Below, piece by piece: positions 31,030-33,944 of a stretch of DNA of 64,000 nucleotides. Position numbers and translations under genes: made by a program. The DNA lies in the NCBI RefSeq assembly GCF_009914755.1, contig NC_060947.1. One strand, given 5' to 3'. This DNA is from the human T2T-CHM13v2.0 reference genome, Homo sapiens. Position 1 is the first letter of the stretch. The number at the start of each line of letters is the position of its first letter. Under the pieces are notes generated by a model. It was not told where the DNA came from. It did no database searches and saw nothing but the letters and a program-made list of their open reading frames with translations.

Positions 31030-31044
31030 ATGCAAAACAACCAA
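31030..31044 (+). pseudogene. Putative first coding segment MQNNQ at the end of exon 1
   Basis: gaccATG CAA AAC AAC CAA|gtgagt; phase-0 join to the next exon. No homology support. Confidence 0.4.
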
Positions 31045-31317
31045 GTGAGTGAACAGGGGCTGGCTGAGGGTTGGGAGAGGTTCCTGGACAGGAAGTGCCA
31101 GCCTGTGCCCTCTTTTTTTGCCCTCAGGGACAAACATGGGAGGTTTAGGCAAACTCTTCTCAGGGGGTAGGGGACACTGAAATGTTGATCAGTGTAGGTG
31201 TTTTGACCCCCACCCCCCAACCATTTGCTTTTCTGTGTTCCTCTTGCCCTCTCTCCCTCTCTCTCTCTCTCTCCTCTCCCAACTCCCCACTCTGTTCTTA
31301 TTCCTTTCTATTCCCAG

Positions 31318-31500
31318 GCAAGGGACTCATTAAGCCCAAAGCAATTTTAGGGTGCCCAGTGGAGAGACTCACAGAGGCTGCTAGTGCCGATGCTGCTGGT
31401 GCTGCTGCTGAGGAGTGCCCAGGACCAGGTGCCAGGGGAGTTGGAGTCAATAACCACCACTGTCAGATCTACTGACCCCCAAGCCAGTTTCTCCAGTCAG
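31318..31500 (+). pseudogene. Putative exon 2 (N-terminal extension) of the Kv3-like gene
   Basis: Long pyrimidine tract, cccag acceptor, cag|gtacct donor; 183 nt (61 codons), one TAG in frame 0; keeps frame into the T1 exon. Confidence 0.5.
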
Positions 31501-32080
31501 GTACCTCCTACTCCCTGTGGAGGCCTGGGGATCTCTAAGGCCCTACAGCTTCCCTGTCACTCCCATTTTCACTCCACTCTCTATCCCCTGCACTTAGCCT
31601 CCCTTGGTGGCTCTTCCATTTACTTCTTTCCCCACCCCACCCCACCCCAGTCCCAAGTTTTCAAAGTGATGACAGAAGATTAAGAGACACCCCATTCCTA
31701 TCTTGGCCATTTAGTCTGCAGTTGCCTGTCTGTAACTTTCCCTGCTGTATACCGTGGCACAACTATTCTCTCAGAGCCACCAGGTGCCTCCCAAGAGCCC
31801 CTGAAAGACATCTGTTTCTAGGCTAGGCTGGTTTTTCTCCTGGAATCGCTGGGCCCAGGAGAGACTGGCCAGTCACCGTGACCACACTTGAGAGCTCACT
31901 GTCCTCCTGATTCCTGAAGACCGAGGAGGAAAAGGCACTCCAGCTCCCTGCCTGGGTGCCTTGGCTGTCACATCACTTCTGTGGATCTCAGCCCCCTTTC
32001 TGCCCTGGCCAAACCTGGGAAGGGAGAGGAAGGCAGGAGGGTCATGTCCTAACCCCTGTCATCCCTCCTCTTGCCAGTAG

Positions 32081-32887
32081 ATCCCAGCCAGCCTAGAAGC
32101 AGGCTCACAGTTTTCCATGGAGGGCTTGGATAATAAACTGATCCTGGATGTTGGTGGCATACGCCACCTGATCTACATCAGCACCATGAGGGCCTTTCCA
32201 GGTACCCGCCTCTACAAGCCGACTGAGCCATCCCCACCTGGCACCCCAGCTGCTCAGGGCCCACTGGTCCAAGAGCTTTTCTTTTCTTTCTTTCTTTCTT
32301 TTTTTTTTTTTTCTGAGATGGAATTTCGCTCTTGTTGCCCAGACTGGAGTGCAATGGCACAATCTCGACTCAATGCAACCTCTGCCTCCTGGGTTCAAGC
32401 GATTCTCCTGCCTCAGCCTCCCAAGTAGCTGGGATTACAGGTGTACACTGCCCTGCCCAGCTAATTTTTTGTATTTAGAGGTTTCACCATGTTGGTCAGG
32501 CTGGTCTGGAACTCCTGACTACAGGTGTGAGCCACCGGGGCCGGCCAAGAGTTTTTCTTTGACTGTAATCCTGAGCTCTTTGGCTACCTGCTGGGCTACT
32601 ACCATATTCAGCAGCTGCACTGCCCTGCCAACATTTGTTGGGATGTCCTAGAGGAGGAGTTGGCTTATTGGGGCCTGGCAGAAGCACCCCTGGCACCTTG
32701 CTGCTGGCTCAAGCTAAGTGGCAAGGAGACCCATACCCAGGACTTTCTGTCCTGGGAGGCCTGTGAGAATGCCTGCATGTGTGAATGCCTTCTGCTGAAC
32801 CACACAGAAGGCCAGGGACTGCAAAATACTTGGAAACCGTGGCTCTGGGTGCTTCTTGACCAACCTCAGTCTTCCTTAGGGGCCAGG
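32081..32887 (+). pseudogene. Kv3-like T1-domain exon, interrupted by an Alu
   Basis: cagtag acceptor; MEGLDNKLILDVGGIRH...VQE[Alu][52 protein letters not shown]...WKPWLWVLLDQPQSSLGAR|gtaact. The frame is open once the Alu and one TSD copy are removed. Confidence 0.93.
32285..32546 (-). mobile_element. AluS-like element with internal deletions, inserted in the T1 coding sequence
   Basis: Antisense Alu; TSD aagagcttttcttt (32271) / aagagtttttcttt (32547). Confidence 0.95.
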
Positions 32888-33115
32888 GTAACTCATTAAC
32901 AGTGTGTGGCACCATGCTAGACACTCCTACCCCCGAAGGACGCTCCCAAAATGCCACAATGGCTACACACTTGGCATGGTGCTTGGGACTCGAATCTATA
33001 GACTTCCGGCACAATTTGAGGGCATCCCTCAAAAAGGGAAGCCAAGGATGGAAGTATAGTTAGAGAGGTGGGGATGCTGGCAGATGGGATTTCTGACAAG
33101 CATCTTTTTCTCTAG

Positions 33116-33944
33116 TGCCTTTCCCTGTTCTCCACACTGTTTGCCATGTGTACCCTGGGCATCTTCTTCCAGCAGACGGAAGTCCAGCTGGATTACTTCT
33201 CTGGCAACTTCACTACTATGGAACATGGGATGGGGGGTGGGGGAAAACCAGCAGCAGCAGTAGCAGCAGAACAACGGTTTTGTTTACCACTGTGCCCCAC
33301 ATCTGCTATACCTGGAGCTGCTCTGTCCCCTTTGGTTTGGAACTGACCTCTTTGCCTGGACCATTTCCTGCCCGAATAAGGTGTGCTTCCTGTGTAGCCC
33401 TCTCAATCTAGCTGATATCTTCTGTTTGTTGCCTGCATTGGTGGAATTGGTAGTAGGTGACAAGGCTGTATGGCAACTCTATCTTAGCCTAATCCTTGGG
33501 GCCATTCATTCTCTCTATGTCCTCAAGCTGGTTCGTCTCCTGGGCTTCCTTAAAAAGTCCTTGGCCATGAGAGTCCTTGTTCATACACTCCATTCTTCCT
33601 GGAAAGAGGTGTGTGCCTTTCTCCTGATTTGGGTGGCTGATATCTTATCCTTTGGCTTGCTCTTCCTCTATGGGGAGCTCTTAGGCATGTGTATCTCAGG
33701 TCAAAGTGAGCCCCACTTGGGAGACATCTTTACATGTCTCTGGTGGACTGTCATAACTCTCACCACTGTCGGCTAGGGAGATGTCTATCCCCTGTCTGCT
33801 CTGGGCCAGCTCACTGCTGCTGTCACAGCCACTGCAGGCATGTGCACTGGTATCTTGTTGGTTCCTGTGCTCCTGGTCCACTTCCAGTGCTATTATGCTG
33901 TGGCCCTGGCTCGCCAGAAACTAAGGCCCAGTAGGACCCTGTAA
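33116..33944 (+). pseudogene. Kv3-like transmembrane exon (S1-S6, pore)
   Basis: ttctctag| S1 CLSLFSTLFAMCTLGIFFQQTE; S2 LLYLELLCPLWFGTDLFAWTISCPNK; S3 PLNLADIFCLLP; S4 LGAIHSLYVLKLVRLLG; MRVLVHTL; S5; pore TTVG*GD (TAG 33774-33776); S6 ILLVPVLL; terminal TAA 33942-33944. Confidence 0.93.

What the first reader, a model, noticed from the sequence alone, without database searches (positions are those of the whole stretch)
31030..33944. Dead 'fifth Shaw/Kv3' potassium channel: a near-complete, intron-containing, highly divergent KCNC-like gene
Seen: removing the Alu, splicing 32887^33116 and correcting one frameshift gives a continuous channel with T1, S1-S4, S4-S5 linker (MRVLVHTL), S5, pore (WWTVITLTTVG*GDVYP), S6 and YYAVALARQKL. 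Knowledge: these blocks and the intron after SS..AR match Kv3/KCNC genes, of which humans have four (KCNC1-4). Inference: there are only a few disabling lesions but extensive amino-acid divergence from KCNC1-4. This fits an old paralogue that evolved under selection and died recently (unitary pseudogene), not a decayed recent copy. An intact, possibly uncharacterised channel may persist in other mammals.
Basis: partly seen in the sequence, partly recalled or inferred. Interest (0 to 1): 0.92.

Follow-up and report, generated by a model that had tools for sequence, protein, structure and literature searches.

The report
Dead human copy of Kv3.5 channel
This stretch of the human X chromosome is the broken remnant of Kv3.5, a fifth Shaw-type potassium channel gene that is still intact in bats, rabbits, squirrels and marsupials; the gene family was recently described, so the human remnant is a tidy but ordinary unitary pseudogene.

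Summary
Window 30910-33944 (+) carries a four-exon, intron-containing Kv3/KCNC-type gene with a T1 domain, S1-S6 and a pore, and it is broken.

It is not a copy of KCNC1-4, to which it is 31-33% identical. It is 82-85% identical to intact 551-564 aa "KCNC1-like" proteins of ground squirrel, kangaroo rats, pocket mouse, hare, pika and two bats, and 66% identical to a bilby protein. In a tree it sits inside that clade (100/99 support). Joining it to KCNC1-4 is rejected (p-AU 4e-124).

This clade matches "Kv3.5" of bioRxiv 10.1101/2025.09.21.677649. That preprint reports a silent subunit in vampire bat and calls the gene "conspicuously absent in primates". It also matches "KCNC1L" of eLife 2023. 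Neither text mentions a human remnant.

I count nine lesions:
- five in-frame stops
- two frameshifts
- one Alu insertion
- one inferred lost splice donor

The decay is old. The human reading differs at 62 of 425 columns invariant in eight intact placentals, and 16 of 23 invariant arginines are replaced.

So the old-paralogue and unitary-pseudogene reading is supported, and "died recently" is not. The family is known; the human relic is a new, minor member.

The parts
30809..30909 (+). Probable 5' untranslated leader of the relic. It is the start of the RefSeq alternative MSN exon 30809-31044.
   Evidence: Annotation table supplied with the finding. Homology to the orthologues' start codon begins at 30910.
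30910..31044 (+). Coding exon 1 (MQGQP.. to ..HAKQP, ending in phase 1). The GTGAGT donor at 31045 is intact.
   Evidence: tblastn of P0003, P0004 and P0008. Splice context. The exon end coincides with the RefSeq MSN alternative exon end at 31044.
30925..30927 (+). Lesion 1: TGA at codon 6. Orthologues have E, R or Q here.
30964..30965 (+). Lesion 2: frameshift in exon 1. Two nucleotides are surplus to the frame, which is equivalent to a 1-nt loss.
   Evidence: The frame changes between the two tblastn pieces. Sequence read.
31008..31010 (+). Lesion 3: TAA where orthologues have Ser or Thr (..VP[S/T]LPVF..).
31318..31466 (+). Coding exon 2 (..KGLIKPKAILG..NNHHCQ). The frame is open. The RefSeq alternative MSN exon 31375-31500 overlaps it but uses other splice sites.
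   Evidence: annotation table of the finding
31467..31468 (+). Lesion 4 (inferred): the expected donor of exon 2 reads AT (cag|atctac) instead of GT.
   Evidence: The position is inferred from the protein junction CQ|RIRAS in the orthologues. No orthologous genomic DNA was available.
32078..32887 (+). Coding exon 3. It encodes the end of the N-terminal extension, the T1 tetramerisation domain and the linker up to ..SSLGAR, and is interrupted by the Alu.
32078..32080 (+). Lesion 5: TAG as the first codon of exon 3, where all 8 placental orthologues have Arg.
32286..32545 (-). Lesion 6: Alu-type SINE inserted in the T1 coding sequence. It is antisense, with the poly-T at its left end, and is flanked by the direct repeat CAAGAG[C/T]TTTTCTTT.
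   Evidence: 38 further hits in the window at 66-87% identity, and the flank sequences.
32888..33115 (+). Intron 3 (228 nt, GT..AG, phase 0). It lies at the same position as the exon 1/exon 2 intron of human KCNC1-4.
33116..33944 (+). Coding exon 4: S1-S6, the pore and a short C-terminus. The terminal TAA at 33942-33944 is at the same position as in the orthologues.
33232..33237 (+). Lesion 7: +1 frameshift, placed as one surplus G in this G run.
   Evidence: Frame change between 33225 and 33244. With 33233 skipped, the reading matches the orthologues.
33261..33263 (+). Lesion 8: TAG inside the poly-Gln stretch of the S1-S2 loop.
33774..33776 (+). Lesion 9: TAG in place of the Tyr of the selectivity filter (TVG-Y-GD).

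Best explanation
Window 30910-33944 (+) is the human unitary pseudogene of Kv3.5 (also called KCNC1L). Kv3.5 is a divergent fifth member of the Kv3/Shaw (KCNC) subfamily.

What the ancestral gene did:
- It had four coding exons and encoded a protein of about 550 aa: a placental N-terminal extension, a zinc-type T1 domain, S1-S6 with a weakened S4, an intact TVGYGD filter and almost no C-terminal tail.
- According to the one functional study (vampire bat), this protein makes no current on its own. It co-assembles with Kv3.1 and modestly slows and reshapes its gating, so it acts as a silent, modulatory subunit.

What happened in the human lineage:
- The gene lost constraint long ago. My inference is tens of millions of years ago, near the base of primates.
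- It has since collected five in-frame stops, two frameshifts, an Alu insertion and probably a dead splice donor, together with heavy CpG decay of its arginine codons.
- It can no longer encode a channel.

What still seems to be used: its 5' end only. RefSeq alternative MSN transcripts begin at 30809 and use the relic's exon-1 donor at 31044.
For: Shown here:
- It is a Kv3-type channel. Pfam finds BTB_2 and Ion_trans. The best solved relative is KCNC1 for both T1 and S2-S6. The intron position and phase are identical to human KCNC1-4.
- It is not KCNC1-4. There is a single copy in the genome, and KCNC1-4 reach only 31-33% identity.
- It is an orthologue of intact genes. 9 of the 10 proteins found at E<=1e-10 among 7589 candidates are 82-85% identical placental "KCNC1-like" proteins. 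The tenth is a bilby protein at 66%.
- Tree (36 rows x 445 columns, careful search). The relic lies inside the 9-row placental clade (100/99). Adding bilby gives 100/100. Adding axolotl P0014 and two unnamed rows gives a 13-row clade (100/100). KCNC1-4 form a separate 16-row clade (96/97).
- Holding the relic with that 16-row clade costs 342 lnL, p-AU 4e-124.
- Relatives of the axolotl protein occur in frogs, salamanders, alligator, turtles, non-passerine birds, squamates (two copies in several) and cyprinids.
- This spread, together with the mammals, matches the distribution printed for Kv3.5 (sections read) and for KCNC1L (passages).
- The lesions are mapped.
- Relaxed constraint. The human reading differs at 62 of 425 columns invariant in 8 placentals, against 0-20 of 427-447 for each intact orthologue. 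16 of 23 invariant Arg are replaced (C6, H4, Q2, W2, P1, L1), against 0-2 in each intact orthologue. The end branch is 0.21, against 0-0.048 for the intact orthologues.
- Exon CpG o/e is 0.126.

From print: silent-subunit behaviour and absence in primates (bioRxiv 10.1101/2025.09.21.677649, section 14).

Inferred: the timing of the loss, and the dead donor at 31467.
Against: - The preprint's own Kv3.5 sequences, including the vampire-bat clone, are in supplements I could not open. The identification with "Kv3.5" therefore rests on matching taxon distribution, divergence and tree position, not on a named sequence.
- Synteny (LAS1L - gene - MSN) in species with an intact gene could not be checked.
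- In the tree the relic pairs with the two bats (99/92) rather than with Glires as the species tree predicts. The inner branches there are very short (0.002-0.02), and the relic's letter make-up departs from the model.
- The loss date uses substitution rates recalled from memory.
- No other primate sequence was available, so shared lesions are untested.
- The silent-subunit function rests on a single species, in oocytes, in a preprint.
Confidence: 0.92

Rival explanations
1. A decayed duplicate (DNA-level or retroposed) of one of KCNC1-4 that arose within mammals.
For: KCNC1 is the best solved-structure match. The intron position is shared with KCNC1-4.
Against: - Identity to KCNC1-4 is only 31-33%, against 82-85% to intact genes of other orders.
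- The AU test rejects a grouping with the KCNC1-4 clade (p 4e-124).
- Three introns are retained, so it is not retroposed.
- Intact relatives reach amphibians and fish.
Confidence: 0.01
2. A still-functional human gene, read through by recoding, alternative splicing around the lesions, or as a truncated T1-only peptide that interferes with Kv3 assembly.
For: - RefSeq transcripts start at the relic's 5' end (annotation table).
- An ATG-initiated frame from 32120 runs through half of T1 into the Alu.
Against: - Five stops of three kinds (TGA, TAA, TAG), two frameshifts and an Alu lie inside T1.
- The selectivity-filter Tyr is a stop.
- Arginine decay and a 4- to 20-fold longer branch show no purifying selection on the protein.
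- The annotated transcripts splice on to MSN, not to exons 3-4.
Confidence: 0.02
3. Relic of a further, separate lost paralogue (a placental duplicate of Kv3.5) rather than the orthologue of the intact genes.
For: Synteny is untested. The relic's place within placentals (with bats) departs from the species tree.
Against: - There is only one copy in the human genome.
- Each placental species contributed one protein cluster.
- The relic's excess divergence consists of human-specific changes at columns invariant in all others. That is what decay of the orthologue predicts, and not an old split.
Confidence: 0.03

Closest known systems
Kv3.5 (Jiang, Kopri, Zurnachyan and Jegla, bioRxiv 10.1101/2025.09.21.677649). 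I read the abstract, sections 5 and 14, and search passages; the supplements were closed.
   Same: - It is a highly divergent fifth Kv3.
- Intact relatives of the relic occur in just the groups the preprint names: bats, lagomorphs, non-myomorph rodents, marsupials, amphibians, non-passerine birds, reptiles and ray-finned fish.
- The preprint calls it absent in primates, which fits a dead human copy.
- A Kv3.4-derived origin, as the preprint proposes, is not rejected by my data (p-AU 0.12).
   Different: - The preprint text has no occurrence of pseudogene, remnant, relic or synteny. It treats the human gene as simply missing.
- Here the human remnant is located (between LAS1L and MSN on X), its four exons and nine lesions are mapped, and its decay is measured.
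- In my smaller tree Kv3.5 is sister to all of Kv3.1-3.4 rather than nested in Kv3.4.
KCNC1L (Zemel et al., eLife 2023, PMC10241522; passages only)
   Same: A previously undescribed KCNC member in non-songbird birds and in lizards and snakes, where it is duplicated. One search finds the same pattern among relatives of the axolotl protein, which clusters with the relic.
   Different: [quoted passage not shown] Searches show intact mammalian, amphibian and cyprinid relatives. This window shows a human remnant.
Human KCNC1-4 (Kv3.1-Kv3.4)
   Same: - T1 domain with the H..C..CC pattern.
- Intron after ..SS.xAR in phase 0.
- S1-S6 architecture.
- CP[ND]K motif after S2.
- GYGD filter.
   Different: - 31-33% identity.
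- The S4 of the Kv3.5 clade has Tyr and Glu at two of the six basic positions of Kv3.1-3.4. Therian forms also have Gly at a third.
- Therian S6 reads LVP where Kv3.1-3.4 read PVP.
- The protein ends 10 residues after ..ARQKL, with no C-terminal exons.
- The human copy is broken.
Silent Kv2-related subunits (Kv5, Kv6, Kv8, Kv9); comparison recalled, not tested here
   Same: These are electrically silent alpha subunits that work only as heteromers with a conducting partner of the same subfamily. An altered S6 proline motif is a recalled hallmark of them.
   Different: They belong to another subfamily (Kv2-related). According to the preprint, Kv3.5 is a second, independent origin of silent subunits.

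Membership tests
Kv3 / Shaw (KCNC) subfamily of voltage-gated K+ channels | N-terminal T1 (BTB_2) domain with the non-Shaker zinc pattern H-x5-C-x20-CC (the pattern itself is recalled) | tested here: met
   BTB_2 hits at E 5e-10 and 0.008. LHCPANIC..(20)..CCW is read. KCNC1 T1 scores 70.9 bits, against Shaw 56 and Kv4.2 42.
Kv3 / Shaw (KCNC) subfamily of voltage-gated K+ channels | Six-TM Ion_trans core with a TxGYGD filter, closest to Kv3 among the Kv subfamilies | tested here: met
   Ion_trans E 1.5e-18. KCNC1 scores 116 bits, against Kv2.1 84, the best Kv1 chain (Kv1.3) 81 and Kv4.2 63. The filter Tyr codon is TAG in human and intact in the orthologues.
Kv3 / Shaw (KCNC) subfamily of voltage-gated K+ channels | Intron between the T1-linker exon and the S1 exon at the KCNC position | tested here: met
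   All four human KCNC genes end exon 1 at ..SSR[YA]AR and begin the next at [YFV][VI]AFASLFF. The relic ends at ..SSLGAR, followed by gt, and resumes after ag at CLSLFSTLF.
Kv3.5 / KCNC1L orthologous group | Falls in the clade of the divergent fifth Kv3, apart from Kv3.1-3.4 | tested here: met
   One search gives 100/100 for the 13-row clade that includes axolotl. One search gives p-AU 4e-124 against a KCNC1-4 grouping. Caveat: the clade is equated with the published Kv3.5 by taxon distribution, not by a named published sequence.
Kv3.5 / KCNC1L orthologous group | Conserved synteny with the intact gene of other species | not testable with these tools
   No non-human vertebrate genome was available. 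The orthologues' contigs are 106-143 Mb long, which is chromosome-sized, but their identity is unknown.
Kv3.5 / KCNC1L orthologous group | Silent subunit that needs Kv3.1 to reach a functional channel | not testable with these tools
   Known only from the preprint (vampire bat, oocytes). The sequence is consistent: S4 has lost basic positions clade-wide.
Unitary pseudogene | Disabled, with no functional copy in the same genome, not processed, and intact orthologue elsewhere | tested here: met
   Nine lesions. Single locus in the genome. Three introns retained. Intact orthologues in eight placentals and a marsupial.

The most novel reading that the evidence does not exclude
The dead channel gene is only half dead. 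Its promoter, its first exon (now carrying a 5-codon upstream frame, MQGQP-stop) and part of its second exon survive as an alternative 5' end of the neighbouring moesin gene. That would make a lost ion-channel gene the donor of a regulated, possibly tissue-specific, MSN promoter in primates.

A second, compatible reading: the LAS1L-MSN interval on X is the ancestral therian home of Kv3.5. If so, hemizygous X-linkage may have contributed to the seven independent mammalian losses that the preprint reports.
Probability: 0.3. Interest if true: 0.4.

Novelty: new member of a known kind. Interest (0 to 1): 0.3.

Why it matters
- It turns a reported absence ("Kv3.5 is conspicuously absent in primates") into a located, datable gene death.
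- The human genome still holds all four exons at chrX between LAS1L and MSN. This gives a synteny anchor for the family.
- Shared lesions in other primates could time the loss.
- It corrects the statement that KCNC1L has no mammalian trace.
- RefSeq does not list the locus as a pseudogene and stretches MSN over it, so annotation would gain.
- It does not reveal a new kind of channel. The family and its silent-subunit behaviour are already in print.

Tried and rejected
- Recent-duplicate reading: rejected.
- Naming the short, unnamed protein fragments that resemble the relic (P0017, P0019, P0037, P0145, P0162-P0165). One search returned no source names, and I did not pursue their origin.
- Neighbour genes of KCNC1L in the eLife paper: no mention of MSN, LAS1L or moesin in its text.
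I left out the 11 frames lying in 31002-33773. Only L1 domains were found, in 6 frames. A short-exon pseudogene would be missed by this scan.
- Literature searches for a prior description of the human relic found none.
  - Terms used included KCNC with pseudogene, X chromosome and Kv3; Kv3.5 and KCNC5; KCNC1-like, KCNC1L and KCNC1P-4P; unitary pseudogene with potassium voltage-gated channel.
  - GENCODE, Ensembl and HGNC could not be consulted.
- Kv3.5 nested with Kv3.4, as the preprint proposes: neither recovered in my tree nor rejected (p-AU 0.12).
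Full report
**1. What is there**

- Two halves of a T1 domain lie at 32114-32269 and 32546-32887. They are split by a 260-nt insert at 32286-32545.
- A GT..AG intron lies at 32888-33115.
- A last exon at 33116-33944 runs from S1 to a stop just after S6.
- Pfam gives BTB_2 for both T1 halves (E 0.008 and 5e-10). For S2-S6 it gives Ion_trans (1.5e-18) and Ion_trans_2 (3.8e-10).
- Against all PDB chains, S2-S6 matches KCNC1 best: 116 bits, E 2e-32. 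Kv2.1 scores 84, the best Kv1 chain (Kv1.3) 81, Shaker 68 and Kv4.2 63.
- The T1 half matches KCNC1 at 70.9 bits, Aplysia Shaw at 56 and Kv4.2 at 42.
- None of this is chance.
- The insert has 38 further blastn hits in the window at 66-87% identity. It has a poly-T at its left end and is flanked by CAAGAG[C/T]TTTTCTTT. It is therefore an antisense Alu-type SINE with a target-site duplication.

**2. It is not one of KCNC1-4**

A six-frame search of the window's own genome with the S2-S6 reading gave 24 matches at E<=1e-5.
- The first match is the locus itself, and it is the only copy.
- The next four lie on contigs 11, 19, 1 and 12 at 31-33% identity.
- The contig-11 frame matches, along the stretch aligned (chain residues 244-453), the KCNC1 chain found there.
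- I call the other three KCNC3, KCNC4 and KCNC2 from recalled map positions.
- I fetched their first exons. All four end exon 1 at ..SSR[Y/A]AR and begin the next exon at [Y/F/V][V/I]AFASLFF.
- The relic ends at ..SSLGAR, followed by gt, and resumes after ag at CLSLFSTLF.
- The intron position and phase are therefore the same. The intron is 228 nt here, against roughly 4-157 kb between the two exon matches in the paralogues (coordinates).

**3. It has intact orthologues**

A word-indexed search of 5.8 billion proteins, restricted to longer proteins, found 10 proteins at E<=1e-10 among 7589 candidates.
- Nine are 551-564 aa (one unnamed row is 452 aa) and 82-85% identical to the human S2-S6 reading.
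- Their sources name them "KCNC1-like" or "KCNC3-like". The species are Urocitellus parryii, Rhynchonycteris naso, Dipodomys spectabilis, D. merriami, Lepus europaeus, Pipistrellus nathusii, Ochotona princeps and Perognathus longimembris.
- The tenth is a bilby (Macrotis lagotis) protein of 436 aa at 66%.
- An exhaustive HMMER search of 1.84 billion cluster representatives found 5462 proteins at E<=0.001 and 8 at E<=1e-30. The bilby protein came first at 297 bits, the next full-length rows scored about 150 bits, and ordinary Kv3 rows scored about 117.
- One of the 150-bit rows, P0014, is an axolotl "KCNC1-like" protein.
- Its relatives at E<=1e-30 (69 proteins among 7250 candidates) come from frogs, salamanders, alligator, turtles, potoo, tinamous, stork, swift, many squamates (often two per species) and two cyprinids at 38%. 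Invertebrate Shaw-type proteins follow.

**4. Tree**

I aligned 36 rows:
- the relic, read with X at each break;
- the nine named orthologues;
- P0013, P0014 and P0018;
- human KCNC1-4, built from own-genome exons;
- 12 unnamed Kv3.1-3.4-type representatives;
- 3 unnamed, more distant Kv3-type representatives (P0055, P0061, P0063);
- two Kv2-type and two Kv1-type human frames.

In going from 60 rows to 36, I dropped 24 of the 43 unnamed representatives used in the first quick tree and one human outgroup row. These comprised nine of the long-branched outlying rows (three others were kept), redundant members of the KCNC1-4 clades and the chr2 Kv5-like row.

Results of the careful tree (445 columns):
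- The relic lies inside the 9-row placental clade (bootstrap/SH-aLRT 100/99).
- Bilby joins at 100/100.
- The axolotl row and two unnamed rows join at 100/100, making a 13-row clade.
- Human KCNC1-4 and their representatives form a separate 16-row clade (96/97).
- Forcing the relic together with that 16-row clade costs 342 log-likelihood units, p-AU 4e-124.
- Within placentals the relic pairs with the two bats (99/92) rather than with Glires. The inner branches there are 0.002-0.02 long, and the relic's composition departs from the model, so I give that no weight.
- Forcing the 13-row clade together with Kv3.4 is not rejected (p-AU 0.12).

**5. What is in print**

Searches for Kv3.5 and KCNC5 found a preprint: Jiang, Kopri, Zurnachyan and Jegla, bioRxiv 10.1101/2025.09.21.677649. 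I read its abstract, its sections 5 and 14 in full, and search passages. Its supplements are closed.
- Among mammals it lists marsupials, bats, lagomorphs and rodents as carriers. It reports losses in Myomorpha and Hystricomorpha, and says the gene is "conspicuously absent in primates".
- Among birds it reports losses in Galloanserae, Trogoniformes and Passeriformes.
- The vampire-bat protein gave no current alone. With bat Kv3.1 it gave smaller currents, a changed GV slope and slower activation and deactivation.
- The words pseudogene, remnant, relic, synten- and X chromosome do not occur in its text.

Zemel et al. (eLife 2023, PMC10241522; passages only) had named a sauropsid "KCNC1L". [quoted passage not shown]

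The taxa fit both descriptions. I therefore equate the 13-row clade with Kv3.5/KCNC1L. No named published sequence could be placed in my tree.

Further searches found no description of a human remnant.

**6. Full anatomy and lesions**

tblastn of three orthologues on the window, the splice contexts and the codon walk give four coding exons:
- exon 1: 30910-31044;
- exon 2: 31318-31466;
- exon 3: 32078-32887;
- exon 4: 33116-33944.

Exons 1-2 and the start of exon 3 encode a 110-122 aa N-terminal extension in the eight full-length placental proteins. The bilby and axolotl proteins begin at the MEG/MEA that precedes T1.

The lesions are:
1. TGA at codon 6 (30925).
2. A frameshift at 30964-30965.
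3. TAA at 31008, where orthologues have Ser or Thr.
4. The expected exon-2 donor reads cag|at (31467). This is inferred from the protein junction only.
5. TAG at 32078, where all eight placentals have Arg.
6. The Alu at 32286-32545.
7. One surplus G in the run 33232-33237.
8. TAG at 33261 in a poly-Gln stretch.
9. TAG at 33774 in place of the filter Tyr.

The terminal stop is at the orthologous position.

Depending on where the frameshift is placed, lesion 8 can be hidden.

**7. How long has it been dead**

In an alignment with eight intact placentals:
- The human reading differs at 62 of 425 columns that are invariant in all eight (14.6%).
- Each intact orthologue, tested the same way against the other seven, differs at 0-20 of 427-447 columns (0-4.5%).
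- 16 of 23 invariant arginines are replaced: Cys 6, His 4, Gln 2, Trp 2, Pro 1, Leu 1. The intact proteins show 0-2 such replacements each.
- The human codons at the 14 Cys/His/Gln/Trp sites are TGY, CAY, CAR and TGG. These are the products expected from CGN by CpG transitions.
- Exon CpG o/e is 0.126 at 54% G+C.
- The 62 replacements need at least 64 nucleotide changes over 971 nonsynonymous sites, giving dN of about 0.069.
- At a recalled primate-lineage neutral rate of roughly 0.8-1.2e-9 per site per year, this corresponds to some 55-85 million years of little or no constraint. This is an inference with wide error, and CpG-rich codons inflate it.
- It fits a loss near the base of primates and contradicts "died recently".
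- The relic's end branch is 0.21, against 0-0.048 for the intact placentals.

**8. How the gene worked, and what remains**

The alignment shows how the intact proteins are built.
- Kv3.1-3.4 carry basic residues at six S4 positions (R,R,R,R,K,R in ..LRVVRFVRILRIFKLTRH..).
- The axolotl protein has Tyr at the second position and Glu at the sixth.
- Therian proteins also have Gly at the fifth and Lys at the third (..IRSLYVLKLVRLLGFLEK..). In the human relic the first is now His.
- Therian S6 reads LVP where Kv3.1-3.4 read PVP. The axolotl protein keeps PIP.
- The filter TVGYGD, the T1 H..C..CC pattern and the S2/S3 acidic residues are kept.
- The protein ends ten residues after ..ARQKL.

A subunit with an intact pore and T1 but a weakened voltage sensor and gate hinge fits the silent, Kv3.1-dependent behaviour reported for the bat protein. 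That link is an inference from sequence. The function itself is known only from the preprint.

In human no such protein can be made.

The annotation supplied with the finding lists alternative MSN exons at 30809-31044 and 31375-31500.
- The first ends exactly at the relic's exon-1 donor and contains its start codon.
- The second lies partly within relic exon 2 but uses other splice sites (acceptor at 31375, donor cag|gt at 31500).
- So the relic's 5' end appears to live on as an alternative MSN leader. I could not test expression.

**9. Verdict**

- It is wrong on timing and on the lesion count.
- The family is already described and functionally tested.
- The human relic itself, its position, structure and decay, is not in the texts I could search and is not annotated by RefSeq.
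- It is a new member of a known kind, of modest interest.

Noticed in passing
window 30809-31044 and 31375-31500: According to the supplied RefSeq table, the alternative MSN exons reuse the dead channel gene's 5' end. The first exon ends at the relic's own exon-1 donor and carries its ATG followed by a stop at codon 6. The second starts inside relic exon 2 and ends at a different donor (31500).
   Followed up: partly
P0017, P0019, P0037, P0145, P0162-P0165 (unnamed contigs): Short predicted proteins, 68-86% identical to parts of the relic. Several have garbled stretches. One (P0017) has an intact filter Tyr and reads through the terminal stop into sequence that matches window 33945-34064. They look like relics of the same gene in other, unnamed mammals.
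   Followed up: no
(proteins P0003-P0011 against P0012 and P0014): The eight full-length placental Kv3.5 proteins carry an N-terminal extension of 110-122 aa (MQEQP..LPVFVDHAKQPSKELIKPKAI..RIRASREAGS). It is encoded by two extra upstream exons and the start of exon 3. The bilby and axolotl proteins start at the Met just before T1. Whether the extension is placental-specific or an annotation difference is open.
   Followed up: no
With my limited sampling, Kv3.5 is sister to a Kv3.1-3.4 clade (96/97) rather than nested in Kv3.4 as the preprint proposes. The nested arrangement is not rejected (p-AU 0.12).
   Followed up: partly
window 7432-10671 (-) and 54930-62400 (-): Two L1 elements. The second has long open frames: an 811-aa frame with a reverse-transcriptase domain and a 374-aa frame with ORF1 domains.
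   Followed up: no
window 1-30800: Among open frames of 95 aa or more, none has a HEAT/maestro-type or other non-repeat Pfam domain.
   Followed up: partly
Many squamates contribute two distinct Kv3.5-type proteins from one contig (Gekko, Elgaria, Phrynosoma, Sceloporus, Rhineura, Hemicordylus). This agrees with the duplication noted for KCNC1L in eLife 2023.
   Followed up: no
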